A DNA stretch of 49,324 nt from assembly GCA_009602725.1 (NCBI GenBank), contig WELB01000014.1, positions 796,561 through 845,884 on the forward strand, given 5' to 3'. The position numbers and the translations under genes are program-made. The stretch comes from Spirogloea muscicola. Taxonomy: Eukaryota. Each line of letters begins with the position of its first letter. The stretch's first letter is position 1. This document shows positions 1,565 through 49,183 of the stretch, piece by piece. Below the pieces are notes generated by a model. The model ran no database searches. It saw only the letters and a program-made list of their open reading frames with translations, and had not been told where the DNA came from.

Positions 1565-4500
1565 CTAGCTCTCAGCCACCGCCACCAGATCACTGGCCAC
1601 CTGAAGCCTCTTGTCTGCGCCGCTCCGCCTCTGACGCTGGAGGACCTCCAGGTGGATGAGGAGAGCCGTCACGTCCGCTGGATTCACTCCACCCACGCGC
1701 TGCGCCTGGCCGATGCATGTGGGCTTGATCTGCGGGAGGGGCACTTGCGCAGCCAGTCAATAGACGTCATGCAGCAGCAGCAGCACATGGTTTCCATATG
1801 AAGCGCGGATTCACAGCTGAACGCTGAGTCTGGAAGTCGGTCATGGACAGCGCAAGCAGCTTCACAATGAGGAAGGATGGCGATGGCGAGCTTAGCACCT
1901 TGTTGAGCTTTTCCCTGGCCTCCATGGAGATCGTGGCAATACTGCTGTAGTCGATGCCAGCGGGGATTGGCCGATGCTCCTTTGCCGCCATCTGCATCCT
2001 TACATGGTCTTGCTTTTGTCACTGTCAGCTCGCACTCCGAAGGTCAGAAGAATGCGTCTCCAGGGCATATCACGCTTGTGAATGACTTCTGCTTCTGGAA
2101 AGTCACACAGGTCAAGCATCGACAATAAAGAACGCCCACCTGCTCGAGCTGCTGCTGCTGGCGTAGTATGAACCCCTCATACTTCACGTCAATCTCAACG
2201 CACTCTTGCTCAACCTGCGAGACCTCAGGGTCCGCAAGGCCGTGCCGCTCCAAGAGCTCATAGTGCACGTGCGGCCGCCGGAGTATGCTGTCCAAGCTCA
2301 CACCCGCCTTCAATGGCTGGCCGCACAACTCCTCGACCTCCGCTGCGATTGGGTCGCTCACTGGGGCCGCCGCAGAAGCATCAGCAAAGAGGGGCAACAC
2401 ATGGGTGGAAATGACTTAGCATCAGCATGCGTTGCCGCAGGGTATCAGCAGCAGGCATCAGCAACAAGATGTCAACTGTTCACGACGGGTCTTCATGTGT
2501 TACTCCCCCTAGTCATACTCTGTGATGAGGAAGGAGTGCCCACGCACTTGCATGGAAATGGGCAACAACATCTGTGCATTTGGCCAGGTCCAAAACCAAG
2601 CACTTGGACTTTTGCCTTGCTCTGAAAGCAGAGACGCAGCGCCAGGCTTGTGCCAACGAATGGGCAAGCACTAATGGGTGACCGAGTAGCAAATTGCACT
2701 GACCTCCGATTCGAATCTTCCGTATGCGGACCTTCTCCGCCGCAATGCGCTCCTGCTTGCTCTGGTAGAGAGCCCACCGACGGTCATCGACCAGCCCCAA
2801 GTCCCGGCCAACTGGCGTGAGTCGGCTGTCTGCATTGTCTGATCGCAGCAGCAGCCTGTATTCAGAGCGACTGCGCAACGGGACACAGTGTCAGAAGAAG
2901 CTGGGACGAAGATGAAGCGAGGCCAATGCCACAGATCTCTTGTTCCACCAAGCTTGACTCTGCAAATTGGTGCCTGGAATCACGTCGTAGCGTCTTGCCT
3001 TGTCAACATGCGGTAGGGCTCGCGCAGGTCCTTGGTGACCAGGTCGTCAATCAGCGTACCGATGTAGCTACTCTCTCGCTCCAGCGTCAGCATTGGCTTG
3101 CCGGCAGCCAGCTGCGCAGCATTTATCCCTGCCAGGAGCCCCTGAAAAGTGCCACATTGAAATAACATTGATGGCTCTTCTGCAACGTCCAGCAGGCCTT
3201 GAGCTACAATGCTGGCCAGGTGAAGAGTCAGCTGCTGATGATGCAAAAATGGATTGGCAACTGTTTCAACACTTGTAGCGTAGGCTGGCTGAGAGAGCGG
3301 CCTTGCCTGTGCGGCTGCCTCCTCGTAGCCGGTTGTGCCATTAATCTGACCAGAGAAGAAAAGGCCGTCAAGGCGCTTAGTGAGCAGTGTCCGCTGGCAT
3401 TGATTCGCGGGCAGGTAGTCGTACTCCACCGCATAAGCTGGCCGGAGCATAGTGCAGTGCTCCAAGCCCGGCAACGTCCGAAGCAGCGCCAGCTGGAGCC
3501 GCTCTGGAAGGCCAGTCGAGAAGCCCTGAGAGAACCAAGGACCATGTAAGACACAGAGACTGTCGTTGATGATGCTGCAGAAACTCTACTTCAGAACCTC
3601 TGTTTCTGCCGCTTATGACAGATCCAGACCTCACTTGTGCTAACATGCAATGACCACCTTTTTGGCACTAAACAAGTTAGTGAGTGACAAGCGAGCAGTT
3701 AGTGTGGGCTGCCGATGCTTGCCTGCACATAAAGCTCTGGCACGGTGCGTCCCTCCGGCTCTAAGAAGACCTGATGTGACTCCTTGTCACGGAACCTCAC
3801 AATCTGTAGGCAAAAGAGTAGCAGTCAGTTGACGGGAACCGGAGCACCTTAAGCACCATTCCCAAACCCGTGGTTAGGTAGTACACAAATCCTCATAAAT
3901 TTGTCAATGACAACACTTCTTTGATAACCCATACTAGAATATGACAGGCGCATGCGAAATGTGCACCTTGTCCTCAATGGAAGGGCAGTACCGTGGCCCT
4001 TTGGCCTCCACCCACCCTCCGTACGTCGGCGTCTCGCCCAGATTGTCCTCGATCAGCTTGTGGGTCGCTGCCGTGGTGCGCGTCAAGTAGCAGCTTAGCT
4101 GCTCCCGCTCCACGTGCACCTCCGGATCGAAGCTGAACCACCGCACCTGGATTCCAAGACCAAACAAAGTCAGGTGTCATTACTAAGGTGAGGGTTCAAT
4201 CTATTGTAACATTTAGGCAGTCTGCTGCCTGATCGTGACGATCAACAGCCTCTGCCTATTGCACAATCTGTGCTGGTCCTCTCAATCGTCTGAGACAACA
4301 AATCCGTCAACGACATCGTTAAGCATAGAGTAACCCTGGTCTTTGATGTAGAGGAGCGCTCTCACCTCGTCATCGCCCGGCTGAGTCTCCAGCCTGGAAC
4401 GGTCGATGCTACGGATGTCTACACGCGCGGGCGTGCCGGTCTTGAGTCGGTCAGTCTCGAAGCCCAGCGCGACGAGGTTCTCAGTGAGGCCCAGGGCCGC

Positions 4501-8970: not shown

Positions 8971-10370
8971 ATGAGCTGGATATTTGGGAAGAAGAAGACG
9001 CCCCAAGGTGCGCCGTACCTGTCGGGCCACTAGTTAGACGGCCAGCTGACGGTGTCCTATCATGCCACTTGCACGCGGGCATTTGCCGCTTACTTTTGCG
9101 GCGCCCCCGCCCATTTGACTGCAATTGGCGTGTCAGCTGCTAACTACCTTACATCTGCATGGCGTAGATGAGAGTTGGGCTCAGTTGCCTCCGCCACGGC
9201 GGTCGCTTGAGCGACAAGCCCTGACGCACCTGCGCTGCTGTGACTGCCAGAGCTGCTGCGCGAGAACAAGCGTATGCTGGACCGGTCTATCCGCGACATT
9301 GAGCGTGAGCGCATGCAGTTGCAATCGCAGGAGAAGAAGCTCGTCGCGGAGATAAAGAAGACTGCCAAGCAGGGGCAGATGGTGCGTTACTGCCTTGTCT
9401 TCACTCTGGCGCTTCAGTCATGGAAGAGTAGCTGAGCTTAATTCTGTGTGCAGGCCACAGTCACAGGGGTTCCAATTTCAAGTGTGCCCAACTACAGATG
9501 CACAGCCATCTGCTAATCAGACATTTTGCTCTTCTGAGATCTGGTCTGTTTGTGCTGACCTTCATGGAGTTCCTACTGTCTGAGGCTGGGGAATCATTTC
9601 ACTTTCGTTTGCCAGGGGGCCGTTAGGGTAATGGCAAAGGATCTGATCAGGACAAGGCATCAGGTTACCAAGTTCTACGCTCTGAAGTCACAGCTGCAAG
9701 GCGTCTCCCTTCGCATGACGGTGAGCTCCCGAAATTGTGAGGCGTGACCTCTTTGTTCCCAGACAGCATGTGGAGCTGCCAGTGCTTTCATACATCGATA
9801 GGCTGGCTCCTTCCTCAATCTTGCTCCTTGTCCTGTTTGCAGACGTTAAAGTCGACGCAGGCGATGGCGGATGCCATGAAGGGCGTGACAAAGGCCATGG
9901 GCCAGATGAACAAGCAGCTCAATCTGCCGGCGCTGCAGAAGATCATGCTGGAGTTCGAGCGGCAGAATGAGCGCATGGAGATGACGACAGAGGTCATGAA
10001 TGACGCCATTGATGACACACTCGAGGGGGACGATGAGGAGGAGGAGACGGAAGAGCTGGTCAACCAGGTGCTGGACGAGATTGGTGTTGACCTTGATTCG
10101 CAGGTGAGCAGCCAAGACTTACTGGCAGCTGTCTGGTCTTCTCATACGGCCGGCTATTTGATCTGCCCTATGCCTCCTCCTTTTGATCAGGTCGCTGATG
10201 TCCAGTCCTGCTTCTGGTGGCAGCTGGTGCGCACGCCTGCGAATGCCACACCCCAGCCTCAGCAGGAGAATGCGCAAAAGGTGGCAGCAGCACCGGCAGC
10301 AGAGGGAGGCGACGACCCGGGCATAGACAGCGACCTGCAAGCTCGCCTAGAAAGACTCAGGAAGATGTAG
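8971..10370 (+). CDS. VPS2: ESCRT-III subunit VPS2 (CHMP2A, Snf7 family); exons 8971-9007, 9251-9381, 9616-9720, 9843-10103, 10224-10370
   Basis: MSWIFGKKKTPQELLRENKRMLDRSIRDIERER...AKDLIRTRHQVTKFYALKSQLQGVSLR...EFERQNERMEM...DSDLQARLERLRKM. All introns GT-AG and in phase. Confidence 0.96.
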
Positions 10371-12173: not shown

Positions 12174-15100
12174 ATGAGCTCGGCGGCGGCCATGGCGGCG
12201 TGCCACGGCCTCAGCATCGCGGGCTTGGCCTCGCGGACGTGCCCGCGAGGCTCGCCGAGGGTCGCCGCGGCGGCAGCGGCAGGCAGGGGCTTGACACCGC
12301 ACCCCTTGGCCGCCACGGCGAGGGCCGCGTGGGCCGCGGGGCGCCGCCGGCGCTGCGCTGGCGGCAGGGGCGCCGGCACCGGCAGCCGGCGATGCACCGT
12401 CCACTGCGTCATGGAGGTGAGCGAGGGGGGGCAGCAGGGCGCAATTGTCGCAAGGCAGGGCTTTGGGCCGGCCATCGCCAAAGCGGCGCCTTTGGGACAG
12501 CTCGCATGGTCAAGGCCAGGCTTTGGCTATCGCAGCGGTTGGCCGCCATTTCGCCTGTTCTCTGCACGTTGTCAGCTCTTGGCTGAGCTTCACAGCTGCG
12601 GGCGCTGGATTGACATGCGTGCATGCAGCCTCCGAGCAAGGAGATGGCCCCCAACACGGCCGTGCTGGTGGGGAGCTCGCTGGAGCCGCCGCAGCAGAGC
12701 AGCAGCAACGGAAGCGTCGGCGGCGGCGGTGGCGGCATTGGCGGCGGTGAAGGTGGCGTCGCTGGGCGGGAGTGGCGAGTCCTGCCCGACATGTGGCGCA
12801 CGCTGGCCGACAAGTTCGGCGACAGCGTGGCGCTGTCAGACCACCATCACGAGCCGCCAGCGGACATTACGTACCGCCAGGTGTGGCTCGCCGCTCACCC
12901 CTCGCCCAAAGGCAGGCGAGGATGCTGTGAACTGCAGTGGAGGGGCCGGGGCCCTGATCCACAGCGCCGCCTGTGTCGCCTGCAGCTGGAGGCGACAATC
13001 TCGGACTTTGCGGAGGGCCTGGCGGTGTTTGGCCTAGCCCCAGGCCAGACTGCTGCGCTCTTCTCCGACAACTCGTACCGCTGGATGGTCGCAGACCAAG
13101 GTGGGGCCCCGCTGCTCGCCTGCCCAAGTTGTTGTCTCGGTGCTGAGACTCAGGGGTTTGGGAAGCTGCCTGGTGTCAAGCTGCATGACCGCTTGGCTGT
13201 CTTCCCTAAGGCTCGTCTCACGCCCTCCATCGCCGTCTTGAATGCAGGCGTGATGATGGCGGCTGCCGCTGATGCCGTGCGGGGCGCCAAAGCATCGCCC
13301 GAAGAGCTCGCACACATTGCTGCACACTCCGACAGGTGCATGCACGGTGGTGCCAGCCGGTGTGGCAAGAGCCCGCTGCCGCTGGCCACGGCGGCAGATT
13401 CAGATTCTCAAAGGGAGATTGGGCTCTAAAGTTGTTGTCATCCTCCATGCGCGCAGTTCGGTGCTCATCGTCGAGAATGCGGAGCTCCTGACGAAGCTGG
13501 CGCCAAAGCTCGGACCAGCAGCAGCAGAGCTGAAGTTCGCCGTCTGCCTGTGGGGTGCAGCCCCGGCAGCGGGTGCCGGCAGGCTGCCATTCCCGGCGCA
13601 CACGTACCAGGAGATCCTGGACGCTGGGCGCACCAGCCGTCAGGCCCTGGCCGCCGCCGACGGCCATGGTGAGCCACCTGGCACTTGCGACTGGCGAGCT
13701 GCGCTGCCTTCTACATGTTATTGCTGGTTGCGCCACCTGTCATGCAAGCCGCCCCGTGTGCTTGAGAACGACTTCCTATTGTGGTGGCTCTTGAGCACAT
13801 ATGCAGGAAGTGTTGCACAGTTGTTCTTTATACTGTGCTTAGAAATTCTTGGTTGTAATCGAATTTGTGATAAGTACCTATTTGCTGTTGGAGAAGTGAG
13901 GGCTTGTGCAGCTGGAGCCTTCTGAACCTATGCCAAACATAGCCAGCTGGTTTTGACAGTGGCACAGTGGGCACTTGCAGCAGCGCGGCGGCAGCACAGC
14001 GCAGCGGCATGCCTCCGACCAGACGATGTCGCGACGCTGGTGTACACGTCTGGCACGACCGGGAACCCCAAGGCCGTCATGCTGACGCATGCCAATCTCC
14101 TCCACCAGGTGGGCTCGTCAGAAATGTGACACTGACAACCCCATCCTGCACATGCTGCGGCCATGATTGTGCCTAGGCTAGCAGCTGTGTTGTCTTGACT
14201 GGCATACTGCTTTAGCTGTCAAGCCCGGTGGATTGACTAGGGCTTGCTAATTTCTTGGGGGCTTTGGCACAGGTGAACAATTACCACACGGTCCTCTCGC
14301 CCGCCCCCGGCGACATTGTGCTGAGCCTGCTGCCGCCGTGGCACATGTATGAGAGGTCTGCGGAGTACTATACGCTCAGCCGCGGCGTTCGTCAGGTCTA
14401 CAGCAATGTCAAGCAGTTCAAGGTGCATATGCTGGCCGCGCGCTGCCCTTGCGATTATCTGCCCTGGTTGCTATGCCTGCCCTTATGACCTTCGTGGGCC
14501 CTGGCCTCTGCGGCGGCGTGCTAATGCCAGTCTTGGTGTTGCATGTTGATGACAGGAGGACCTTACGAAGACGTCACCAGACTTCTTCGTGGCCGTGCCT
14601 TTGGTGTTTGACATCCTCTACAAGTGAGCGGGGCCCGTCACCAATTGCTACTATGCATGCTTATTCTCGCACAGCCTGCAATGCAGCCTGTACTTTGAGC
14701 TGTTACCTCGTACAAGTTGTAGCCTTGCAACTTGAGCAGCACCCATGAGGAGGTTGGCCCGCTGGTTGCCTCCATGGCATGGCTGCCGGTGCTGGCCCTC
14801 GTCTTATCACTGAAGTTGCTGCCCAGCTTACACCCCAACATCTGGGCTGGCCTGATGCAGCGGCGTGCAGAAGAAGCTCGCCCAGGCGTCGCCGGTGCGC
14901 GCTGCGCTGGCGAGGTTCTTCATGAGCGCCAGCCAGGCGTACATGGACAACCGGCGCGTCTTCGGGGTGAGTGGCGGCCTGCGCACACGAGCTTAAGCTG
15001 AGTGCTGCTGCAGGCGCTCCCGCAAGAAGCCAATCAGCTGAAAGGCTCGGGAGTATGGCTTTGTGCCTATGCCAGTCAGTCCTTATGCTTGTCCACTCGG

Positions 15101-33113: not shown

Positions 33114-33535
33114 AGCGAAAGCTCTAATACACGGAACTATTCTAAGCCCCACAGTCGCTGAAGTAGCCACTTAGCGCTCAGTGAACCGCTGTGGAGCTGC
33201 CGCAGGTCGGAGAAGCTTCGAAGGTGCTCCATGGCTGCCATACAGTAAGCTGGATGCAGCACACCTGCAGCAAAGACTGCGAAGGCAATACTAGCAATGC
33301 GAGGTGCGGCACACAGGAGTCGTCGCCAGTTTCGCTTTGCCGGCAGGTCAGCCGGTGCGCCTGCGCAGCCGGCGCTGGCTGCTGCGGCTGGCGGGGCATG
33401 GGCGCGGAGCACGGTGGCGTGGGTTGGCGGCCTGTGCCGCTTGCGGTGGAGCACTTAGTGACGTTACGCGGCGCGTCGCACGTCAGCTCGCCTTGCATGC
33501 AGCGCTCGGCAGCCTATCGAGGACAACAAGCAGCG

Positions 33536-34904
33536 ATGGCTGGCGGCACCGCTGCCAGTGCCGTCTTCACTGGCACTGCCGCGGGCGCTCCGCCGGCGAC
33601 AAGCAGTTCTGCAGCTTGCCAGCGCGCCGCTGCTGTGCACGGCAGCCGGACGCTGCTGAGCCAGGCCGCATGCCATGGCCGGAAGCTGCCCCATGCTGGC
33701 TGTGGCGGCCGTGGTGCCAGCCCCAATTGGCGTCGGCGCCGACGGCGGAAGAGCAGGCTGGCGGGCACGGCGAGGGCACTGAGCTGGAGGTGGGAGGACG
33801 AAGACACTGGCGGCGGCGATGTGGGCACTGGCACCCGAGGCGACTCTGGCAGCGAGAAGGGCGACGGTGCCGCTTTCGAGCACGGCGTGGCGCTCTTCAA
33901 CGCGGGCCAGTACTATGCTTGCCACGACGTGCTGGAGGAGCTGTGGCACCGCGCCGCCGAGCCCCAGCGCACCGCGCTGCACGGCGTCCTGCAGTGCGCC
34001 GTCGGCATCTACCACCTCCTCAACCAGGTCTGCACGACCGCAGCCTGCTCGGTTTCCATTGCTCAGACCATTCTTAGCCTGGTCAAGTAACTAGAGGTTC
34101 ATGATCATTGCCAAACTGGCTCCATTAGTTGTCCTACATTCTACGAGCTCGGCTCATATCCTGTTAATACCAGGTTGTCCTCCTGCACTCTCCATTGATA
34201 CGTTCGGCGCAGCACCGCTTCAACATGGCACCATTCTCTGCCCTTCAGCAGCGCTGCTGCATCTTACGATGGCTGCAGAACCACAAGGGCGCGATGGTGG
34301 AGCTCGGGGAGGGGCTCAACAAGCTGCGGCGCCTGCCCAGCCGCACCGGCCCTTTCCATGACTTGGAGCACCAGGCCTCCGCGCTCCTTGAGTTCATCTA
34401 CAGCACACAGCTGGAGCACGCCGCCTGTGATCCTCAGCACCCCTGACGTCAATCAGTTTCTGCTCTTCCTTGCCAACCCATTAGTGCTTTGACATATGCT
34501 GAGTGAATTGGGTCCATGAACGCCTCACACAAACTTGTAGACGGAGTGCGTGCATAGCTGTCGCAGGGCAGCTTGCAAAGTACAAAGCAGCAAAATGGCT
34601 GATGAGCAACTCTGCTTGCTTTTGGTCCTGAGGGCAATTGTGATCCTATGATCACAATGATGCAGGTGCCGATGATGTCTGTGTGGCCATGGACGGGTCT
34701 GAAACGTCCTACCGCTTGCTGGGCGACTTTGCTGCTGGCCAACAGCTTTATGCTCTTCACGTCGATGTGAACGGGCTCGCTCGCCTTCGGTATTATCCTC
34801 TCCATGCAAGAAGCGAAAGCTCCAACGACTTCCCGGCCCAGCCAGAGCAACAAGTGCTGCTGCCCATCCTCGATGCGTCAGAAGCAGATCTACGAAGCTG
34901 TTAG
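33536..34904 (+). CDS. DUF309 domain protein (plant plastid type), 3 exons
   Basis: FEHGVALFNAGQYYACHDVLEELWHRAAEPQRTALHGVLQCAVGIYHLLNQNHKGAMVELGEGLNKL...CVAMDGSETSYRLLGDFAAGQ. An alternative ATG lies at 33497. Confidence 0.88.
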
Positions 34905-35480: not shown

Positions 35481-38400
35481 TTAAGCCTCTTCAATGGATG
35501 GCCGACATGAGAGCCACGACTTGAAGGTTGAGACAGCAGCTTGCAGCTGGCACGACCGGTACTCCATTGACACAGGTGCCAAGAGAACCATGCATTCAAG
35601 GTCCAGCTTCTCGTCACTTGCGGCCCCTTGCTGAACCAGCTGCCCATCCGTGCAGAGGAGGCCAGCAATCTTGTCGGCCATGCTGGAGTACACAGCTCTG
35701 CCAGGATGAAGAATCATCCAAAAGCACTTCAGACATGCGACAGTGCAACTGCATATCAAGCCCGCAATTATGTTTGTAAGATCCCTTCAGAATCCCTTCT
35801 GCAACCCCCAGAGCGAATGTTACCTCAACTGTAGGCCATTGCCTGTCAGCCACTGAGCCAGCGGTTCGCGTAGCCGCTGGAAGAGTGCTTCACACCTAGC
35901 AACCAAGCCCGCTTCCAACATCTGCACCATTTATCAGCCATATTCAAGGGCCAATCAAAGCTGAATATGAGGAGGGCTCCAGACGAAGAATTGTACAGAT
36001 TGCTAGCACAGATAACATTTCTCGCATGAGGCCGAATCTACATCAACACAAGCTGGACGAAACAATCAGGTGTTTGATGAAATGCTTTCTCCAATCTTAC
36101 CTCTTCATCAAAGAATGCCAAGTCCTTCCTGAAAGAGTCCCTTAGGTAAAGGTAGTCAACAAATATAGATGCTCCCAACCTCCAATGCACAATCTCGTCC
36201 TTCTGCTTTTCCAATCTTTGCAAAATCCTCCTCAGCTCAGACTCGTCTGCAACATTCAAAGGAGCTGTTTCATCAGCAGTATTTCTCAGCAAAGTGCCAG
36301 CAGGAGCAAATGCTAGGAGGCTGACCAGCAAGGAAGGTAAAAGAGACCTTGCATATCCTGCCTTGTCTGACAGTCGACTCTGAAGGTCGCTTGCCTGAGT
36401 AGAAGAGGGTGGATGCAACTGAAGTCATGAAGAGTGCGTGGCCTTCCTCCAACTGGCCACCCTCAAGCAGGTGGTGAAGCTCGTTGCGATGTTCTCCGAG
36501 GTATCTATAGTACATAGCCTGCACTTGCATGATTGCATCGCTACATTGTGTGACTGGATCATGCAGGCAATGGACCCAAGGGGCTCAGCAATCTAAAGAA
36601 CCAACTGCCCTTATTGCCATGAAGAAACATGATTCATATTGATCCAGTACATACACCAAGAGGCATTGCATCTTTATTCACCCTTTCATTCCTTGAGATG
36701 AACGAGTACGCGATGCCAGACCTACTGCTGACGAACTTATTCTGCAAGGCGCACCTCTGCTGAATGCATCCAAGGTGATGGAAGGTGCAGGTCCAGCAAG
36801 GCTTCTCGCTGCTCTTCGGAGTTCGTCCAATCTTCCACATACTGTGTGAGGATAGTCTCCACAGCCCGTTCATGTAGGTAGGGGAAGTTTTCAGACCTCG
36901 GCATGTGCAGAATGACATAGATAGCCCAGTGACATTGGCCTATGGCCAGCAGCTGGTCAGCCAAGCCCATGTGGAGGCCATTCAGATGCTCGCCACTTTG
37001 AGCACCTATTGCCTGGCAGAATGTAAAGCAGCGCCACTGGTATGAGTCACAGGTTAGTACAATGCTTATCAGCAACTGAGTAACTTCTGGACTTGTGGGA
37101 TTCAAATGCTACTGGACTTTTGGGGTTGAGATATATAGGTGCACTTTGACGACACTCTACACTCCCTGCTTACGCTTGAAAATGATATAGCAGGATATCG
37201 CGGCGACATACCTGCAATGCAGCATGGACTTCCCAAGCCAGTGCATTGTCCAGTTGATCTGACGTGTAAGATGCAGACCTCAGCATGGCCGTCGACTGCT
37301 TAGTGTCATCTTCTTTGACATCGTCGGCACTCCTGACGGCTTCTTGTGCATGGAGCTCCATGAGATGGTAAGCCATGTCCAGGGGCGCCGTCTTGGAGGG
37401 TGAGCGCGCCCCACCCTCCTCCACATACATGGCCAGCGGCGGCGGCGCATTGCCTGCTCGGACGCTGGCTACATACTCCGTGACAACGGAAGCGAGGGGC
37501 GTACTAGGCAGCAGCTGGTACCACAGCATCAGGCCCAGATGCCGCTTCCAGTCGAGCGGCTCCTCGTCCTTGGTGGCCAGGTCGACCTGCCCGGCAAGCA
37601 GCCGATACAATCTCAGGCGGGAGCCGTCAATGAGCGGCGGCTTGAGGCCTTCGACGTCCCACACTGCCAGCTGCGCTTTCAGGTCCGCTCGGCTAGCAGA
37701 TAGCCCGCCGCCCAGCGCAATGATGCTGGCCAATCGGACATCCCCCACTTCGATGGCAATACCGGTCGCTTCCTCTAGCTGGTGCCCTGTGAGGTACTGG
37801 AAGATGGCCTTGGAGGCTGAGCCCATTCCTGACTTTGCAAGGTCCGCCAAGCACCTCTCAACTTGCTCGCCAACATTGTCCTGCAGCCAGACACTGAACA
37901 GCGTCCGGCGGCGAGACGCCTCTGCTTCATGATTCAGGGCCGATGGTGGCAGCTGCGCTCCGCTGCCATCCCATCCAGCTTCCAGGAGGGCGCTGTCGGA
38001 GGGGTCCTCCACAGGCCTGCTGTGCTCAGCAAAGAGCACGTCCACTAAGTCCCACACCATGGCTCGGTGTCGCAGGATCAGCCGGCGATCTGGCATGCTC
38101 CCGAAGTCAGCTTCAAGGAGCTCGCGCTCCACCAGCGACCGGTGCTCGTTACACACCGCGGGCAGCCTTCGCCTGTCCAGGCTCACGCCACGGACTGGAG
38201 CTCGCAGCAACAACGTGGGTCCAAGTTCGTCTTTCTCATCTTCATCCGCCGCCTCTGTGCTCAGCATCTCCCTGTGCACCAGGAGCCCTGCAATCATGCT
38301 GTCTCGCTCGGCTGGCTCACAGAGAGCCACCTTCTCAATGTGGACAAGCGATGACAGGCCGCTGGAGGTGCCCATCGCAGAACCAGAGTGGACGAGCACC

Positions 38401-41400
38401 CCGCCAGGTCCCCACCCGACCCGGAAGGAGCGGCCGAGAAACAGCCCAAGGTCTGTCACCACGCTCGACCGGCCTTCTGTCACCGACGGCACAGTCGCTG
38501 CCACGAAGCCTGCGGAGGGTTGCAACCGCTGCCTCTTGGCCTGCGCCAGCTGCTCCCTTGGTCTATGGATGTCTTCAATCGTGTTAGAAGGAGGAGCCAG
38601 GAGGCTGCGCTCCCTCCACGGAGACGGGCTGAGCTTGTCCATCCCCTCCATGACCTCCCACTGTGTGACATGCTCCTTCGACTTGGCAGTGCCCCTCGAC
38701 CCACCAACACTCATCTGTCGCGATTGAGCTTTGGTGGTCAACTCTGCACGGCCACTTTGTCCGCTTGACTGCTCCTCTACTGTGCCGGTTTCACCATCTG
38801 CGGAGAAGAGCAGGCGGCGCATCTGCGCTATCCGCTGGGGGTCGAGGGCGAGCCGAGCCGGCAATGCATGCACCAACTCCGCACCACCCGTGTCGTCCAT
38901 CGACAACTCTGCCACGCCAACCGGGATGAGGGCCTCCTCATCTCTGGGCGAGCCAGTAGGCTCGTTGCCGTCATCATCGCCGCCACCATCATCGTCGTCT
39001 GACGTGTTCAGGCCATATCGGCTGAAGTGGTCGACTTGGAAGACCCACTCGCCTTTCTCCGGCGAGTACGACAAAAATTTGGCCCCCTGCTCTCCTGTCT
39101 TCCGGATGAGCTTCTTCACGAACGACTCCAGCTGGGGCCCTGACTTGACGTGCTCGCCAGTAGCCCTGTCCACGCAGTGGACCTGGAGTAGAGCCACCTC
39201 GGCCGCTTTGTTCAGCTCGTCTCCCACAGGTGGCTTGGCGGCCTCGTCCATGTACACCAGCACCTCGCACTTGTTGAACTGCACTATGGCTTCAAGATCT
39301 AAGCCCCTCACATCAGTCTCCCCGAGAAACTTGATGTGGCCGTATCCTCGCCGACCCACCACAAAGTTGGGCACGCGGCTGCAGTATCCTGGATCTGCCC
39401 TCTCCTTGGCAGCAAGCTCTGAGAGCCTTGGTTGCGTGAAGTACTCCTCGCTAATAAGGCTTGGCAGTGCCGTCCTCTGTCTGCCGTCCTCTGCCACCTG
39501 AGTACCCTTGCCACCGCTGAAGGCCTCATCGCCCCTACGACTTGTTCCTGGCTCCTCACTGTCGTCACCCTCCACAGACCTCAGATTGGCGCCCTCTTCC
39601 TTGTCCAGGTTGCCATTCATATGATCTTGCTGGCGACCAGTGCCTTCACTCCCATGGTCATGACTGACAGCGTCTGTAGTCCGTGCCGGACGACCCTCCT
39701 GCTGCTTCTGCGGGCTCTTCTCTGCCTCCCCATTGGCAGCTGAGGGAGCTTGCGAATCTGTGGGCTGCCCCTTCTCGGCCTCTGCTCTCCTGCTACTCTC
39801 CCCTCTACTTGCTCTTCTCCTGGCACGATCATCCCCTTCAGCATGATTGGCCGCTTCGGCCAAGGACCTCTCCTTTTCCTTAGCATTGCCTATTACAGTC
39901 CACCTTCAGAGGTAAGACTGAGGCTATCCCTACCCTCCTGCAGCAGAACTGCTGGGCAATAATTGCACGACAGATACTCAAAGCTGAAGCAATGTCATCC
40001 CCACAAAATACCTGCTGGCTCTAGTACTGCTGAAGCATTACTACACCTTCACATGCAAGTAAAGCAGCCTCATTGCACAAACTGGTCTCAGGCTACCCAG
40101 CCACTGAATTCTTGTCGTCAGTCATGCTCTAAGCAACGCCATATCGTGCATCTAAAGATCCAGCAAAGCCTGCTCCATTGAAACATTCTTACACACGCTC
40201 TCTCAAGAGGAGCCAGTAGCCTACTGGACAGACTTCTCCGTTCTCTCACCATTCGGCTGTGGCGACGCGCGCGGTGAAGCTTTGGGAGGTCCAGGCTGGC
40301 GAATGAAGAGTGCCCGAGGCTTCTCCCTGGGCACAAACGCCACATCGGCCTTGGGCGCACCTGCTGACATGTCTTCGCCTTCGCTGAAGAAGGAAACCTA
40401 TGGCAGCACCAGAAGGCAAGAGGCTAAGCTTTCAACTACCACAGAACAGACGGTTCTCCAGTATGCATTCTGCAGTGAGTAAGTGATGGGAAACATTGAA
40501 ATCGATAACCGCCGCGTTGCATGCTATTCTGGTCTCTACTTTGCATCGAGCATTCTGGGAGAACTGACAACCAACCTTTGGGAGGTTACTTTTGGACTGC
40601 TGCCGCCGTGCATGGACTCGGACGTTAGACCTGGTTGTGACATGCCTAGGCGTGAGCAGTGACGACGTCCTCATTGTCGCAACTTTGTCAGTGACCTGCA
40701 AAGGTCGAGCATGCACTGCACTTAGAAGCGACCCTCTGTATCAAATTATGATCTATACAATCTGCATGTTGTAACTTATTCCACATTCTGTTATCCACAC
40801 AATCCGCATCTGTACTGAATGAAGTTATCCCACAATATAGCTGCCAGAGATAACAGCAAGATCCTGCAATATTTAAGGTCCAAAGCTGTTGCTAGGCAAA
40901 ACCAGGATACATGAAGACTGCAGACATCCATGAAGATGAATTCTGTTGTGGTGCAGTTGCTAAAGTAGGTCAATTGCAATGTCGTATAGCAATGGCTGCA
41001 TGCACAAACTCATCCAGCTCTAGTATGACATCAGGGTGCAACTTAACTGGTAGACTGGAGATGCCATACTGCGTGGGGCTTCGACTGGTCAGCGCAAGTT
41101 GCGGCATGGCTGGCAGGGTGCCAAATGGCGTAGCCACAGGCGGAGGCGTGCCAGCAAATAGACCGGTTTGAACTGCAGGCCTGCATGGAGCATGGTGTCA
41201 AATTACTGCGCAACCACAAGTAGTTCCAAATATCAGAGCCCTACCTTATCAAAGAGAGTAGTCATTTTACAAATGCCAAGAAGACTCTAAGTTGACAGAT
41301 GCTAGGATCGCAAAGAGAGCACCAGTCCTCCCATTCCTGCAGTCTCTGACATGATGGCACATCCAAAGATGCAGTGCTGGACGACGCAGTTGAAATCAAG

Positions 41401-44185
41401 CAGCTCACTGAGTTGAGAAGGATGGCATCCCAAAAGATGGAGTTGGTGACGTGCCAAAGATGTTAAAGTTGCTGCCTGCACAAGGTAATACTCAAGTCAG
41501 CTTATCATTGACGACATGTCTGCGATGAAGGTCGCAATCAATTCAGCTCATGAGATGAACACCAGTCTCATCTGCTTAAACAAAATGGTCGTACTTGGCT
41601 GGCTCTGCCCAAAATTGGCAAAACTGAAGGTGCTGCCAGTGGATGGTGCAGTAGCTCCAAAATTAGCAAATGTTGGAGTGGCCTGCAAGGTAAAAGCACA
41701 CTAACTGTAAAAGGACAAACCTTGGGTGATGCAACACCCGCCTGCCCTGAGCATACACTTCCTAGTTACCAGAATTTCGGCCATATGTTTACTTTCAGAC
41801 CTTAGTGTGCAGCCATATTTGGCAGGCTCAAGAATGTAGTATTGTGATCAACGAGGACGTCAAAGACCCAGGTTATCCAAGCCGTAGCAAGCTCACCGAG
41901 GACTGACCCAAACCGCCAGGCTTGGTCATGGCCCCAAAGGCACCAAAGGACGATGCCGCGCCTGTGTTGCCAAAGAGGGAAGAGCTGAACGGTGAAGAGC
42001 TTGAGGGAGCCCCGAATGCTGGCGCGCTTGCTCCAAAAGCAGAGGGCTGTGAGGCGCCTCCAAGCCCAAAACTGCCAAACGTGGGCGCCGGTGCAGAGGG
42101 CAAGCTCATGTTGCCGAAGATGGAATTGGTCGTGGTGCCAAAGGGCGAAGACGATGGCGACGACGAGGGGAAGGCTGACGTCGACCCAAAGGCTGGAGTG
42201 GAGCTGCCAAAAGCCCCGCCACCAAATGTGGACGTTGTGCTGCTGCCAAAGATTGATGGCGTGGAAGTTGGGGCCCCAAATGCCGATGTGCTACCAAAGG
42301 GCGTGCTGGTGCTCCCGAAAGCGGGGGTCGTGGATGCTCCGAAAGCAGGTGTGCTTATGCTGCCAAAGGTGGGAGCCGAAGCACCAAACGGCGAGGGGGT
42401 CGTTGACCCAAATGCAGAGGTGCTGCTGAAAGGTGGCATGGTCGAAGGGGCGCCGAACGCTGGTGTGGTGGAGGATCCAAACAGCGACGACGAACTGGCG
42501 GTGGCGCCGAAGGGGTTGGGCGGCGCTGCCGTTGCCCCAAATTGAAGCGCAGTCCCGAACGGGCTCGCCTGCGGCTGGCCAAAGAGGCCGCCCCCTGCTG
42601 GCGCCTGGCCCATGGGGTTGGGGCCACCTGCAGCATTCACCAGCCGCTGTCGGTCATGGCCATGGTACATGAATGAGGTGCAAAGTCATGCCCCAGACAT
42701 GAGCCAACTGAGGCAAGACAGCGCTTGCCTGTCACTTTGTCTATTTGCATCAAATCCAGAAGCATTAGACTCCAGAATCAGGGAGGAGTGTGCACGTTGT
42801 GTGTGCAACACTAGGGCCCTGTGCGCCCTCACATCGTGCTTGCAACGGGCAGCACAAAAACAGGATGCAATCAACCAATTGTGGAAGAGAAGACAGATAA
42901 CCAACAAATGGCTGGTCCAGGATGCTCGCTTACCCTTGTCACTGGCCTGATAGTCCTCCCAGCGCAGCTCCTCGGGGCTCTTGAGCTTGTAAGCGGGCAT
43001 GGCGGAGATGGAGATGAACTTGCCGGCCTGCGCGCCGGTGCCAGAGTCTGCATCGTTGGTTGTTGCGTACAGCTGCGCACGGCTGCCCGGCCGCCCCGTC
43101 CCACCGAATGGGACCGCTCCAAACGAAGTTGTCCCAAAAGCCGATGTGGCTGCGCTCCCTGTATTGACCCAGTAGAGGTGAAGCCATTGAGACTGTCGTG
43201 TCAAGCACATCACAGATCTGAGAACACGATAACCTTAACAATACCAATTGAACAGAAGACATAAAGTCCAACTAGTCCTAGGTTGGTCGCCTGCAAAGGA
43301 TGGTGGTCGCCAGACCCTACCGAATGCCGGCGTGCTCTGCTGGCCAAAGGGCGAAGTCGTAGAGGCACCCCCGCCGAAGACGGACGTGGTGCCAAAGATA
43401 GGCGCCGCAACCGAGGAGGAGGTAGCTCCGAACGCACCGAAAGCGGGCACAGCGGAGCTTGCCGGCGTTCCAAACGCCGATGGTGCCCCGCCCGGGGATC
43501 CTCCAAAAGACTGCTGAGGCGATCCGAAGCTGGTCGTCCCTGTGCCGAAGGCCGGGGTCTGCACCGTCGCTCCAAAGGCGGGCGCAGCACCGAAGGGGTT
43601 GGCCGCTGGCGGCGCAGCGCCAAATCCCGGCGTCTGAGAAGCAAATGCGGGCGTTCCGGACGCGCCGAATGCAGGTACGCCAGTGCCGCCGAAGAGGGAG
43701 GTGCCGGCGCCTGGCTGCTGCGCGACCTGCCCGAACGGCGTGACGCTGGCCCCGCCGCCGAACGGGTTGGCGGTCTGCTGGCTGGCGGCGAACGGGTTGG
43801 CCGACGTCGACGTCCCGAACGCGCTCGACGACGCCCCAAAGGCTGCACGAGAGCACATGTCATTCTGCTCAGGCATGGGCCTTGACCTAAGTTTCAGTAA
43901 AGAGGAGCGAGCTGTCAGAGCGCAGGTGCGCCAAGGGACAGCATTATGCACGCGGTATGAAAGCAGCTACAGCGACGGAGAGGGTGGCTTGCAGAAGAAG
44001 CGAGCCGGCGAGCCATGGCGGCGGTGACGAGAAATCGCCGAGCAGGGCGGAGCAGGGAGGCGGCAGGGCGAAGGGGTCAGGACGAGGATCGCCAAGCAGG
44101 GCGGGGGAACGAGGCGCCGGGACGAGAGAGGAGAGGCCTGGCGGCAGCGACGGAGAGGCTCACGGCTGGCTGCCGCGCCGAACAT
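35481..44185 (-). CDS. NUP98: Fused nucleoporin NUP98-NUP96 precursor, multi-exon
   Basis: MFG start, many FG repeats and a GLEBS motif ([22 protein letters not shown]). Plant Nup98 motifs QYGISSLP and [16 protein letters not shown]. Peptidase S59 domain ending [10 protein letters not shown] (39021-39029), then Nup96 motifs ([37 protein letters not shown]). Stop at 35481. Confidence 0.95.
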
Positions 44186-44536: not shown

Positions 44537-44609
44537 GCTGACTTAGCTCAGTCGGTAGAGCGCGTGGCTTTTAACCACGTGGTCACGGGTTCAAGTCCCG
44601 TAGTCAGCG
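44537..44609 (+). tRNA. tRNA-Lys(UUU), nuclear type, intronless
   Basis: Acceptor stem GCTGACT/AGTCAGC, A-box TAGCTCAGTCGGTAGAGC, anticodon arm CGTGG-CTTTTAA-CCACG (TTT at 44570-44572), T-loop GGTTCAAGTCC. No encoded CCA. Confidence 0.96.
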
Positions 44610-44888
44610 CAGGGCTGGGCGTCTGCAGTTGTCGCCGGGGCTGCCGACGGCGCAGCGCCCATTGCGCCAACGTTGCTGCGCCGGCTCTCGAGTCGTCACC
44701 ACCGCAGCTGCTCCGGCTTTTCTATGTACCGTCATTTTCTTGTCCACGATAATTTTAACCGTGTTGCCATCACAAGCACCTCGACCATCAGTGCTGAGTT
44801 TACTGTGTTGCCATCCTCGCTCCTTGCCGATGGGTTTTCCATCTATGTGGAAGCTGTCATATATACAAATTTATCACTTGCGCATCCC

Positions 44889-45224
44889 GGGTCTTTCGGA
44901 ACTTGTTCAGTCCTCCCTTTGAGCTGGCCTTCACAGCCACCGCCTTACTACGGAAGAGCTGTTCCTACTCTGCAGATCCTTGTCTTATCTTTCGGGCCGG
45001 CCCTTCCGACCCTTCTAATCACAGTCTCCGTGCGTTGTCACGGCTCTGCAACAGTCAAGATGTTTACCAGACCATTTCATACAGCCGCCTGACGAAAAAT
45101 CTCCCTCTCCGATCTGCTCTCATGAACTCTCATGAACTTACAAGTGGAAGGACTCTTCCAGGAGAGGGCAATGGCTGTGATTGGCCAGCCCAGGAAAAAG
45201 GATAACCAAAGTATGGAGAGGCCA
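44889..45224. repeat. Cluster 5 of the dispersed motif (44889-44959+, 44975-45012+, 45151-45224-); outer copies are inverted
   Basis: gagctggccttcacagccaccgcc..ggaagagc versus the reverse complement gggctggccaatcacagccattgccctctcctggaagagt. Confidence 0.75.
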
Positions 45225-45513: not shown

Positions 45514-48500
45514 TCAGCACTTGTTATGGCGGCAATGGCTGAAGCACAAACCGAAGGCCAGGCTGCCATATCCAAGCTCCCAGCAACACTGCTGGCATTC
45601 GACGAGGTAGTCCTGGCACGAGTAAGTGATGGGTGGGTAGGGCGGGTAGCCACATGTCGGCGCATACTGGGCAAACGCCCAGCAGTAGTTCGGTACGACA
45701 TATGCAATATCGTTCATGGCGCCGAAGCACCGGCCCTCGCAGGCGATGGCGCATGCATTGCAGTTGCCGAAACGGTCTGCCGGAATAATGGGCGTCGCAT
45801 AATTGCAGATGGCATCACATAGTGAGCTGTAGGACTTGCCGTTGTAGCCACACACCCTGGTACCAGCAGCGCAACCGCAGTAACGGCTGACGCCTGGCCA
45901 CTTGCAGGGGATCTGCACCACGGAGAGTCGAACATTCATCAGCACCGTCATGTGCAAAGGATGAATGATTCTTTACCATGGTGCAGTCAACACCTCAGCA
46001 TGTCTGTGTCAGACACTCCTGCGATTGCTCATATGATGACATACTTAGTTCGTTCCAAATACTTGACAATTTGACATAACGGTAGTGAAGCTGCTACCAG
46101 GTTGACACGCTTCCAACAAAACCTGGTGAAGACAGATGCTGACCTGCAAGGTGGTGTTGGCAGCAAGGGCCTCGCAGTTGTGCAGGCGGTTGTACCAGCA
46201 GATGTTGGAGGGCGATGCCTCAGCGCCGCACTCATCATGCACCGTCGCAGCGATACGGGTGAGAGTATCGCCCTCAGCGACCAGGTATGGCCGCAGATTG
46301 ATGTAGTCGGACGAAAGCGGGGGGCTGATGCACAATGCCTGCCCAACCTGCAGGCCCGGCCAGTCGCACTGCAGGCCAGGGTTGAGGTGCCGCAGCTGCA
46401 CATGGGTCAGGCCGGCAGCCGAAGCAATCACCGCACACGTGTCGCCTGCCTTCACCCGGTAGATGCTGGAGCAGTTGAGGGCAGACACGCCACTGGCGAA
46501 TGGGCTGATGCACACAGAGATGCGCGGCGGAAGTGGGGCGCTGCTAAGGCTGCAGTCGAGCCCTGGATTGAGCTCCGCAAGGTCGGCAATGGTGATGCTG
46601 AGTTTGCGTGCGATGCAGTCGCAGGTCCGGCAGCCGTCCTCCGTCTCCACCACCGCACCGCAGCGGCCCACATGATCGCTCACCGTTGTTAGCCTTGCAG
46701 CCAAACGCTGGACGCAGATTTGCTGGCCAGCATGGAGTTTGGAGCAGTCCACTAGTGGGTTTGCCTTCCGGAACTCAGCGGCGGCAATGGCATGAGCTGT
46801 CTGGATGCTTGCACATGAGTCGCCGTCCTTCACATGGTACAGTGACGAGCATAGGATGCTCTGATTCTCCCCGTCAGCCACTATCAGGGTGTGTCCTGCA
46901 TGCAGAGCAATAGCCCAGGAGCAAGTGCTGCATTCAAATCGATGAAGAGTGTGACAAATGCAGGACATGGATTCTTGTCTTAGTAAGCAGGACAACATGG
47001 TGCAATGTTGCGAAGTCGTTGAGGAGAGCTACCTGCCAATGGAGCGGTGCAGTCCAGCCCAGGGTTGAACGCAAGGAGCTTGGACAAGGTAAGCCCGTAC
47101 GCCTGCGCGACATGGCCGCAGGAGTGGCTGCTGCCGGGCAGAACAATGGCGGGCGATCCACCACCTCCACCGCGGTGGACGCAGGTGGGGTGGCCGTCGG
47201 CCCTCACGCCGATGACAGCTGCGGCAGTGCACTTGCAGGTGTAGCTGCCGTCGAGGCCGTCAGCGCAGACGCCCGGCCCACACGGGCTCGGATTCTGGCT
47301 GCAGGGCGAGGCAGGCACGCACTTCGGCGCGGCCGGCACTGCAGTGTTCAGCACATAATCTTCGGGGCATTGGCAGCTGTAGCCGCCACTGGGGCCGCCG
47401 AGGGTCCGGCAGGCGCCACTGCCACATGGGTTTGGCAGGGCGCTGCAGGCGTTGACGTCGTCATTGATAGGCACCAGGGGGCTGTGCCCCAGCAGGCCGC
47501 AGGCGCCCTTGCCGCCAGTGGCCGCCATGGCAATCTTTGCATAGCCGCCGACGCCCCACAGCAGCCCCCACGTGTTGCGGACGATCCAGTAGTCCTGGCT
47601 GGAGACGGGGTTGACGCCGTACCCAACAACCAGGACCGCATGGTTGATGCTTGTGCCGCAGGCACCGGCGTAGATGTCGCTGCTAGCCCACGACTGGAAG
47701 TCGTAAGCACTTGCATCCAGGAAGGCGACTGCAGGCTGCAGAGTGGGAGAAGGAGGCGCCGAGAATCAGTACAACATCTGTGAGACTGCGCTAGAAACTG
47801 AATCAATCTACACGTCACTCGTGCATTTACACTTTGAGCTGATATTAACACTAGTAGAAACAAACTTGTCGAACGCACTTCGAAGCTCTTGGAAAGCAAG
47901 GAAGCACAGGAGCTGCAAGTGGACCAGCCCACAGAAAGAACAAGTGGGCTTTCAATAACATTGCCTTTCAATTACAAGCAATGTGTACCGCTAGGCTTCA
48001 GCGGGGTTGGTGGCAATCGTACTGGAATGTCCCACCATGATTTTGTCTCAACAATGGGTGAAGGATTACCCATCTTCAGTCGGTTTTATGGCTGGCATAC
48101 AGACTATGTGCACAGCGTGTTCAAGAAAGGCAAGGGTGATTCAGAGCAGTGGATGCATCAACTTCTGCCAGGTATGTGCAGCAGCAGACCTGGCTCGCAA
48201 TCGCCTGCTTGAGGGCGTGCACGTCCAGTGCGGGCACGAGCTCCCAGCCAGAGATATGGGCTGTATAATTGGCGGCGCCCGCCACCTTGGCGCGGACGCA
48301 AGTCCAGCTACGAGCCGAGTAGGGGTAGTCGGCCGCGGAGTGGAGGCCGCCGCTGGTGGCGACATAGTCCAGCGCACCTTGTGGCCACCCTCCGCCGTTG
48401 CAGCAGGCATTGACGCTGCCGCTGCTCTCCCGTGCGCAGTCGCAAATTTCCTGTGCAGCAAGATCGACAGCAGGGAGGCCCGTTTGGATGGCCCGAAGCG

Positions 48501-49183
48501 CAGCGACGGCGTCAGCCACCACCAGTGCCCAGCAGCTGTCGCACTGGCCCTGGTTTTTCACCTGCCGGTGACAAGACAGGAGCGGCATGGGCCATATCGC
48601 TTGTTAGCATAAGTGCGTTGCATATTCGCCGGGAATCCAAGCCACTGCTTTCGCGCACTACGGGATTGTGTTGGAGCCGGCAATGGCGGTTGAGCATGAC
48701 AATAGCTGGACACTGCCAGGCAACCGGCTGACATTATGACCTGCAGAAGGTATACTGTGAGACCAGGAAGAGCACCCCCAACCAAGTACAATTTAAGCAG
48801 AGACACGAAGCTGGCTTACCGGAGGGAGCACGTCGGGCACGAGGCGCCAATCGACGGACACGGGCGGCCGCAACGCTGGCGTAGCGGTAGTACTTGCTGC
48901 GGGCGTGATGGGATGCGCCAGCAGCAGTGGTGGAGCCGAGGCCGGGCACGCGGATGCCCAGGCGGCGCACCGGCGCCCCGGGGTATGCGCCGTCGATCAT
49001 GCGCCGACGGGGCGCCGGAAATCCGCCGGCTGCGCGCTCCGGCGGCGGCCGCACGCCCCGGTTTGCGACGAGGACCTCGAACGCCGTCGGCTGGCCGGCG
49101 GCGGCGACGACGGGCAGGAGGGCGACGAGGAGGAGGGCCAGCGCCGCTGCAGCAGCAGCGGGAGCCCATTGCGGTGCTGCCAT
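45514..49183 (-). CDS. Secreted papain-like (C1A) cysteine protease with 2 EGF-like, about 5 LysM, Kazal-like and Cys-rich C-terminal domains
   Basis: Signal peptide; [11 protein letters not shown] (Cys 48532-48534), [11 protein letters not shown] (His 47640-47642), YWIVRNTWG (Asn 47574-47576). Exons 48561-48190, 47735-47033, 46895-46144 and 45912-45514 splice in phase. The junction from exon 1 to 48561 is unresolved. Confidence 0.88.

What the first reader, a model, noticed from the sequence alone, without database searches (positions are those of the whole stretch)
45514..49183. Secreted papain protease fused to EGF x2, LysM x5 and a Kazal-like domain: candidate algal anti-microbial or self-regulating protease
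Seen: four in-phase GT-AG-spliced exons join an intact C1A catalytic set (Gln, Cys, His, Asn) to two 6-Cys EGF-like repeats, five LysM-like repeats, a Kazal-like motif and a Cys-rich tail, behind a hydrophobic signal peptide. Known: LysM binds GlcNAc polymers (chitin, peptidoglycan), and land-plant papain-like proteases carry at most a granulin extension. I do not recall this architecture being characterised. Inference: a secreted protease that docks on fungal or bacterial walls, i.e. an algal innate-immunity or microbiome-control effector.
Basis: partly seen in the sequence, partly recalled or inferred. Interest (0 to 1): 0.88.

Follow-up and report, generated by a model that had tools for sequence, protein, structure and literature searches.

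The report
Algal papain–LysM protease family, frameshifted copy
This gene belongs to an old, apparently undescribed family of papain-type proteases with five LysM (predicted sugar-binding) repeats in the algae closest to land plants, likely secreted to dock on microbial cell walls, but as sequenced here it carries one extra base that cuts the protein short.

Summary
The architecture is real: signal-like N-terminus, papain (C1A) domain with Gln/Cys/His/Asn, two EGF-like, five LysM, a Kazal-like domain and a Cys-rich tail. Corrections: five exons, not four. Also, one extra base at 48868/48869 puts the signal peptide out of frame with the protease, so the sequence as it stands gives 137 aa. Spliced contigs of a relative show all four introns and lack that base. 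This copy is a recent pseudogene or an assembly error.

It is not unique: 69 of 150 listed relatives are C1A-EGF-LysM. The named ones are Spirogloea, Mesotaenium and Closterium, plus one entry from an algae-eating amoeba. The Kazal-bearing clade has 98/94 support. C1A-LysM fusions were already reported in Chlamydomonas; my searches found no paper on this family.

New traits: no I29 prodomain, Cys-rich LysMs nearest to plant chitinase LysMs but mostly lacking their chitin-favouring aromatic residue (17 of 291 have it), and a shortened Kazal loop.

Best reading: a secreted protease tethered to GlcNAc polymers on microbes (about 50%); binding and defence are untested. New variant of a known kind; interest 0.5.

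The parts
48870..49183 (-). Exon 1, 5' part: ATG, hydrophobic signal-like stretch and short family pro-segment (no I29 domain)
   Evidence: Kyte-Doolittle maximum 2.63 over 19 aa at residue 11; family pro-segment profile E 2.9e-9 in this frame; no Pfam hit. No signal-peptide predictor was run.
48868..48869 (-). One extra base relative to a relative's spliced contigs: +1 frameshift
   Evidence: Both X1 contigs covering the place lack one base; the profile switches frame here
48820..48867 (-). Exon 1, 3' part: start of the mature protease (DWR motif), in the +1 frame
48562..48819 (-).
   Evidence: skipped in X1 contigs
48190..48561 (-). Exon 2: C1A first half with oxyanion Gln (48552-48550) and catalytic Cys (48534-48532)
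   Evidence: Pfam PF00112 E 1.3e-20; best solved match ficin 1b, E 8.1e-18
47736..48189 (-). Intron 2 (454 nt)
47033..47735 (-). Exon 3: C1A second half with His (47642-47640) and Asn (47576-47574); EGF1 47450-47316; EGF2 47306-47178; start of LysM1
46896..47032 (-). Intron 3 (137 nt), inside LysM1
46144..46895 (-). Exon 4: end of LysM1; LysM2 46851-46708; LysM3 46662-46504; LysM4 46473-46324; most of LysM5 from 46296
   Evidence: Pfam PF01476 E 9.6e-29; nearest solved LysMs 5bum (E 5.2e-9) and 4pxv (E 1.4e-6), both named Chitinase A
45913..46143 (-). Intron 4 (231 nt)
45760..45906 (-). Kazal-like domain, non-classical Cys spacing, 6 residues between Cys2 and Cys3
   Evidence: all matches weak but consistent
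45514..45759 (-). Conserved Cys-rich tail of no known family, ending in a predicted two-helix CX3C...CX3C hairpin; stop codon 45516-45514
   Evidence: no Pfam hit; one Z 2.0 row to a designed helical repeat only

Best explanation
The gene is a frameshifted copy of an old zygnematophyte family of papain-type proteases that are likely secreted and predicted to be tethered by five LysM repeats to N-acetylglucosamine polymers on microbes, where the protease would cut nearby surface or secreted proteins. Shown: the domain order, the four catalytic residues, four spliced introns in a relative, the extra base, the family and its clade. Inferred steps: (1) the signal peptide sends the protein to the wall or mucilage; (2) the short conserved pro-segment, which stands in place of the missing I29 domain, would keep it inactive until clipped at its basic residues; (3) the EGF pair would act as a rigid spacer; (4) the disulfide-type LysM array would bind GlcNAc-X-GlcNAc with additive affinity, leaning to peptidoglycan rather than chitin; (5) the Kazal-like domain and tail are likely a structural cap or second binding module rather than an inhibitor. 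As sequenced, this copy cannot make the protease. A recent loss-of-function change and an assembly error are about equally likely.
For: Architecture and catalytic set. Splicing of all four introns in a relative. 69 of 150 listed relatives are C1A+EGF+LysM, 13 of them also Kazal-like. 49 of 68 fused C1A domains with all four positions filled read Gln-Cys-His-Asn; 22 of 90 were incomplete. The 14 sampled Kazal-clade rows, from Spirogloea, Mesotaenium, Closterium and unnamed sources, form one clade at 98/94. 12 of 20 full-length members have a hydrophobic N-terminal stretch (KD15 >= 2.0), and none has one in the last 45 aa. The Thr/Ser at the position whose mutation cut AtlA binding 60-fold (PMC4083421, passages) is kept in 60 of 65 LysMs, and the buried Asn in 65 of 65 (13 members). 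The same paper says an aromatic at the next-but-one position favours chitin and a non-aromatic one suits peptidoglycan. It is aromatic in only 17 of 291 fusion LysMs, against 4 of 4 in Gonium, 54 of 128 in LysM-only proteins and both nearest solved chitinase LysMs. No GPI- or membrane-like C-terminus in the window protein.
Against: No binding, activity, localisation or microbe-induction data exist. The frameshift means the window copy may be dead. The missing aromatic may just as well mean weak or lost sugar binding. The second aromatic that the paper links to peptidoglycan (AtlA F40) is present in only 5 of 13 LysM2 and 1 of 13 LysM4, and my mapping of AtlA numbers onto the alignment is by motif. 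AtlA itself binds chitin better than peptidoglycan. 17 of 68 complete fused domains have Ser in place of the catalytic Cys, so proteolysis is not needed by all members. 8 of 20 members fall below the hydrophobicity cut-off, though several of those models look truncated. Run X1 is only guessed to be RNA, is one study, and is a relative, not this individual.
Confidence: 0.5

Rival explanations
1. The family works on the alga's own wall or mucilage: the LysM array binds host glycans or glycoproteins (or is only a stalk), and the protease remodels matrix proteins in growth, division or conjugation.
For: The chitin-favouring aromatic is mostly absent. Two spliced variants are present in run X1 with no record of microbial challenge (library not on record). 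Conservation across three genera suggests a steady role.
Against: LysMs characterised in the passages read bind GlcNAc polymers, not cellulose or xylan (PMC4083421). Core binding positions are kept. A zygospore review has 0 mentions of chitin or GlcNAc (PMC11449217, term search). Many paralogues, dead copies and LRR/lectin fusions look more like a microbe-facing family.
Confidence: 0.25
2. The family is a glycan trap, sensor or decoy: LysMs capture microbial wall fragments, and the papain domain serves as bait for microbial protease inhibitors or as a release switch rather than as a weapon.
For: 17 of 68 complete fused C1A domains have lost the catalytic Cys. A sister clade carries LRR and legume-lectin domains ahead of C1A-EGF-LysM.
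Against: In the Kazal-bearing clade that holds the window copy, nearly all complete domains keep Gln-Cys-His-Asn (P0015 has Ser, P0049 has His for Gln). No membrane anchor or kinase is present in the window protein.
Confidence: 0.15
3. The C-terminal Kazal-like domain folds back and inhibits the protein's own papain domain, making up for the missing I29 prodomain.
For: No member of 30 matches Inhibitor_I29 at E<=0.1. Kazal-like fold: Pfam Kazal_2 in 4 of 30 members, best E 4.2e-5. The top four Foldseek rows are Kazal-type inhibitors, E 0.78-2.8. Cys1 and Cys5 come and go together in 25 of 29.
Against: The Cys2-Cys3 loop has 6 residues in 26 of 29 members and its sequence is not conserved. Kazal domains are serine-protease inhibitors (established knowledge). 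56 of 69 C1A-EGF-LysM relatives have no Kazal-like hit with my profile; at least three of these hold a diverged one (P0016, P0019, P0022). A conserved short pro-segment already exists.
Confidence: 0.1

Closest known systems
Papain-like cysteine proteases, MEROPS C1A (Pfam PF00112); nearest solved: ficins, ananain, EP-B2
   Same: Catalytic Gln/Cys/His/Asn and the DWR mature start. P0003 matches ananain at E 1.9e-56; window exon 2 matches ficin 1b at E 8.1e-18.
   Different: No I29 prodomain and a roughly 530-aa C-terminal extension of EGF, LysM, Kazal-like and tail in place of granulin or KDEL. This copy is frameshifted.
Chlorophyte C1A-LysM proteins (Chlamydomonas, PMC6362431 Suppl. Table 3 and PMC2728734; Gonium P0133)
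   Same: Papain domain joined to several LysM repeats; reported as absent from vascular plants.
   Different: Gonium P0133 keeps I29, has no EGF or Kazal-like hit, and its LysMs have no internal Cys (0 of 4, against 257 of 296 here) and keep the aromatic (4 of 4). A shared origin of the fusion is neither shown nor rejected (p-AU 0.17 and 0.63).
Volvox carteri pheromone- and wound-induced cysteine protease with chitin-binding repeats (Amon, Haas and Sumper 1998)
   Same: Recalled, not read: a papain-family domain joined to three chitin-binding repeats, induced by wounding. Only the citation was seen.
   Different: The paper was not held, so domain type and homology are unchecked.
LysM domains of fern and horsetail chitinase A (PDB 4pxv, 5bum; PrChiA and EaChiA in PMC8003243; linking the PDB codes to these species is recalled)
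   Same: Best solved matches to the window LysMs. Same internal-cysteine type that PMC4392113 calls fungal-specific and notes in PrChi-A.
   Different: Attached to a protease, not a chitinase. All five window LysMs lack the Tyr that follows GDxC in both structures.
Non-classical Kazal inhibitors (horseshoe crab CrSPI-1 3pis/3qtl, leech LDTI 1ldt, infestin 2f3c)
   Same: C-x-C...C-x10-C-x3-C spacing; top Foldseek rows and the best VIA row, Z 2.0, rmsd 2.4, 39 aligned.
   Different: All scores are below significance; the loop is one residue shorter than the recalled canonical 7; no inhibition shown.

Membership tests
C1A papain-like protease | Peptidase_C1 domain above Pfam cut-off | tested here: met
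   74.9 and 59.1 bits against cut-off 20.7 on exons 2 and 3
C1A papain-like protease | Gln, Cys, His, Asn catalytic residues | tested here: met
C1A papain-like protease | Open frame from signal peptide through the mature domain | tested here: not met
   +1 frameshift at 48868/48869; 137-aa product as sequenced
C1A papain-like protease | Proteolytic activity | not testable with these tools
   needs activity-probe or substrate assay
Cathepsin-L-type plant PLCPs (RD21, SAG12, CEP) | I29 inhibitor prodomain | tested here: not met
   No hit in exon 1, in 8 of 8 fused relatives or in 30 of 30 aligned members; found in controls P0009 and P0133
LysM (PF01476) | Profile match above cut-off | tested here: met
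   99.5 bits, 4 stretches in exon 4; 5 repeats with a family profile
LysM (PF01476) | Binding of GlcNAc polymers | not testable with these tools
   Residue pattern only
Chitin-binding LysM of PrChiA/EaChiA type | Aromatic residue after GDxC | tested here: not met
   0 of 5 in the window; 17 of 291 across fusions
EGF-like | Six-Cys repeat with Pfam EGF match above cut-off | tested here: inconclusive
   Six Cys per repeat seen; 19.7 bits against 21.5 in the window; above cut-off in P0039 and P0085
Kazal inhibitor | Kazal fold and disulfide pattern | tested here: inconclusive
   No Pfam hit in the window; 4 of 30 relatives hit Kazal_2; weak Foldseek, VIA and Atlas leads all Kazal; Cys1/Cys5 covary in 25 of 29
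Kazal inhibitor | Seven-residue reactive loop between Cys2 and Cys3 (recalled) | tested here: not met
   6 residues in the window and in 26 of 29 members
Chlorophyte C1A-LysM proteins | Common descent of the fusion | tested here: inconclusive
   Gonium is unresolved in the careful tree; AU tests do not reject one clade; LysM type differs
Alpha-hairpinin (lead only; motif recalled) | CX3C-Xn-CX3C helix-loop-helix | tested here: inconclusive
   Motif in 16 of 29 tails, 12 of them Spirogloea-like or Mesotaenium sequences including the window; two predicted helices; Foldseek rows 9q1l and 2lqx at E 4.9 and 8.0

The most novel reading that the evidence does not exclude
The last common ancestor of zygnematophyte algae built a secreted anti-bacterial system that land plants lack: prodomain-less papain proteases aimed at peptidoglycan by re-tuned fungal-type LysM arrays. 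It expanded into active enzymes, catalytically dead decoys and LRR/lectin-fused sensors, with a C-terminal hairpin released as an antimicrobial peptide.
Probability: 0.2. Interest if true: 0.8.

Novelty: new variant of a known kind. Interest (0 to 1): 0.5.

Why it matters
[quoted passage not shown] This family gives a concrete, assayable candidate: a protease with a glycan-targeting array, conserved across three genera and not seen in named land-plant hits. The LysM residue pattern makes a sharp prediction (peptidoglycan over chitin). The window copy itself is a poor experimental object because it is frameshifted as sequenced; intact relatives are the ones to test.

Tried and rejected
A hidden intron that restores the frame: three GT-AG candidates exist, but they would remove part or all of the family pro-segment, and an X1 contig runs unbroken over 48818-49016. 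Rejected. A downstream start codon: the first Met in the mature frame lies after the catalytic residues. Rejected.

Independent origin from the Gonium fusion: suggested by the first trees, but the AU tests do not reject one clade, and the constrained tree scored higher. Left open.

Decay test: of 25 listed window-versus-X1 coding differences, 13 were synonymous and 12 not when scored one by one. The listing is partial and some share a codon, so this is inconclusive.

Whole-protein fold of P0003: mean pLDDT 48.6, not used. Tail searches: nothing in PDB sequences, Pfam or VIA beyond Z 2.0; this does not show a new fold. The Atlas look-up of the tail alone did not complete. Complex prediction of C1A with Kazal+tail was not folded: no verdict. 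No genome is held for the window, so paralogues and raw DNA reads could not be checked. No run on record as RNA is listed. X1 has no cover at 49017-49056, so the signal peptide is not bridged by one contig.

Literature: no paper held LysM + cysteine protease + Zygnematophyceae. No occurrence of 'peptidase c1' in 25 listed of 83, nor of 'papain-like cysteine prote' or 'plcp' in 20 listed of 144. Searches gave no description of this family in their listings. Term searches in PMC11156808 and PMC13519894 gave 0 hits, and PMC11289646 held LysM twice with no protease term. The two supplements of PMC10505561 were unreadable and may hold expression data. Subscription papers are not searched. Earlier findings of this scan: none relevant.
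Full report
Gene structure. The gene lies on the minus strand, 49183 to 45514, in GC-rich (57.5%) eukaryotic DNA with three N runs. A fourth intron, 48819-48562, separates the DWR mature start from the catalytic Cys exon. Downstream of 48867 the spliced frame is open for 757 aa. It holds C1A with Gln, Cys, His and Asn, two EGF-like repeats, five LysM, a Kazal-like domain and a Cys-rich tail. No second copy lies in the window. Neighbours are tRNA-Lys at 44537-44610 and housekeeping genes.

Splicing. One public run was listed (X1; RNA status guessed; 11% of words). Of its 75 laid contigs, 13 are 95-99% alike, 36 are 90-95% and 26 under 90%, so it is a relative. Its contigs skip all four introns (231, 137, 454 and 258 nt). 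No contig spans protease to LysM. The listed pieces tile 45575-49016 with overlaps of about 30 nt, and 49017-49056 is uncovered.

The ATG frame carries a hydrophobic stretch and then a segment that matches the family pro-region (E 2.9e-9). The match continues in the +1 frame at the mature start. Both X1 contigs over this place, one close and one more distant variant, lack one base at 48868 or 48869. As sequenced, the product is 137 aa with no protease. The rest of the coding sequence and all splice sites are intact, so this is either a very recent loss of function or an assembly error in a stretch of 75% GC. Without DNA reads I put this at even odds.

The family. Exon 3 found 9 longer proteins, 8 with both PF00112 and PF01476; the last exon found 2 more. 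A profile search of 1.84 billion representatives listed 150. Of these, 69 have C1A+EGF+LysM by my profiles, 13 of them also Kazal-like; 58 are C1A only and 12 LysM only. I looked up 20 fused or part-fused representatives: 7 Closterium, 4 Mesen1 (Mesotaenium; label recalled), 1 Spirogloea muscicola, 1 Leptophrys vorax (an alga-eating amoeba, so likely prey; recalled), 1 Gonium and 6 without an organism. In one search, 16 of 52 hits have both domains: 15 are named Spirogloea-type, Mesen1 or Closterium, and 1 is unnamed. The named land-plant rows have I29 and no LysM. The range beyond these genera is untested, since most representatives carry no name.

Tree. I kept 124 of 150 C1A domains with at least 185 aligned columns, then 42-43 for likelihood trees. 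The window sits in a Kazal-bearing clade of 14 sampled rows at 98/94, which spans Spirogloea, Mesotaenium and Closterium. Its sister is a clade that includes LRR- and lectin-fused members. The closest protein is P0007, 55% identical over the domain. Gonium is unresolved. Holding it with the Kazal clade is not rejected (p-AU 0.17), and holding it with all 23 fusions gave a higher likelihood (p-AU 0.63). The origin of the fusion is therefore open.

What is distinctive. (a) No I29 prodomain in 30 of 30 members; a short conserved pro-segment with basic residues stands in its place. (b) LysMs with two internal Cys in 257 of 296 repeats, against 0 of 4 in Gonium (the fusion count includes one repeat from Sanguina). 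They are nearest to solved chitinase A LysMs and of the type that PMC4392113 calls fungal-specific (passages). (c) The position after GDxC is aromatic in 17 of 291 repeats and in none of the window's five. PMC4083421 (passages) reports that an aromatic there matters for chitin and that a non-aromatic one suits peptidoglycan. It also reports that stacking has a limited role and that AtlA binds chitin better than peptidoglycan. The key Thr/Ser and Asn are kept (60 and 65 of 65). I read this as GlcNAc binding kept, leaning to peptidoglycan; weak binding is the alternative. (d) The Kazal-like domain is supported only by weak but agreeing leads (model pLDDT 71.5) and by Cys1/Cys5 covariation. Its loop is short, so inhibition is doubtful. 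(e) The tail has no family; its last part is a predicted two-helix CX3C hairpin. (f) 17 of 68 complete fused domains have Ser for the catalytic Cys.

Prior knowledge. PMC6362431 (passages and Supplementary Table 3 rows) lists five C1A+LysM architectures, all in Chlamydomonas. None is C1A-EGF-LysM-Kazal, and no zygnematophyte genome is in the table. PMC2728734 (passages) notes peptidase_C1+LysM in Chlamydomonas and the absence of peptidase+LysM from angiosperms. PMC8003243 (passages) gives chitin binding and antifungal activity for PrChiA. A wound-induced Volvox protease with chitin-binding repeats is recalled from Amon et al. 1998; only the citation was seen. PMC2474614 (passages) added nothing on this fusion. 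Ten searches found no description of the zygnematophyte family (listings only unless stated), within a library that lacks most subscription papers.

Mechanism. Best reading (0.5): secretion, removal of the short pro-segment, docking on microbial GlcNAc polymers through five LysMs, and local proteolysis. Rivals: host wall or mucilage remodelling (0.25), trap or decoy (0.15), Kazal self-inhibition (0.1). None of the functional steps is shown.

Verdict. Observation partly confirmed; interpretation partly supported. It is a C1A gene by domain and residues, not a cathepsin-L-type plant PLCP by prodomain, and not shown to hold a Kazal inhibitor. New variant of a known kind. [quoted passage not shown]

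Noticed in passing
window 44537-44610 (+): tRNA-Lys(TTT) gene about 900 nt downstream of the stop codon.
   Followed up: no
window 37170-43966 (-): Nup98-96 gene: FG-repeat exons and a 911-aa open stretch with the autopeptidase and Nup96 domains.
   Followed up: partly
window 2983-3585, 9741-10367, 12614-13426, 33185-34087: Exons matching GidA, Snf7, AMP-binding and DUF309 families: an ordinary housekeeping neighbourhood, no protease cluster.
   Followed up: partly
window 45151-45200: Dozens of X1 contigs share a short stretch here with loose ends on both sides: likely a small repeat in the 3' flank.
   Followed up: no
proteins P0008, P0039, P0042, P0073: Relatives with LRR, and in some a legume-lectin domain, ahead of C1A-EGF-LysM. 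Three of them fall in the sister clade, and P0073 has Ser at the catalytic position.
   Followed up: partly
proteins P0025, P0163: Spirogloea members with C1A-EGF-Kazal-tail and no LysM detected: the array can apparently be dropped while Kazal and tail stay.
   Followed up: no
protein P0001: The model joins two family genes head to tail; locus names show several members on one Spirogloea scaffold (s144), a likely tandem cluster.
   Followed up: no
protein P0026: Family member filed under Leptophrys vorax; likely a prey-alga transcript, which would mean expression during amoeba attack. Untested.
   Followed up: no
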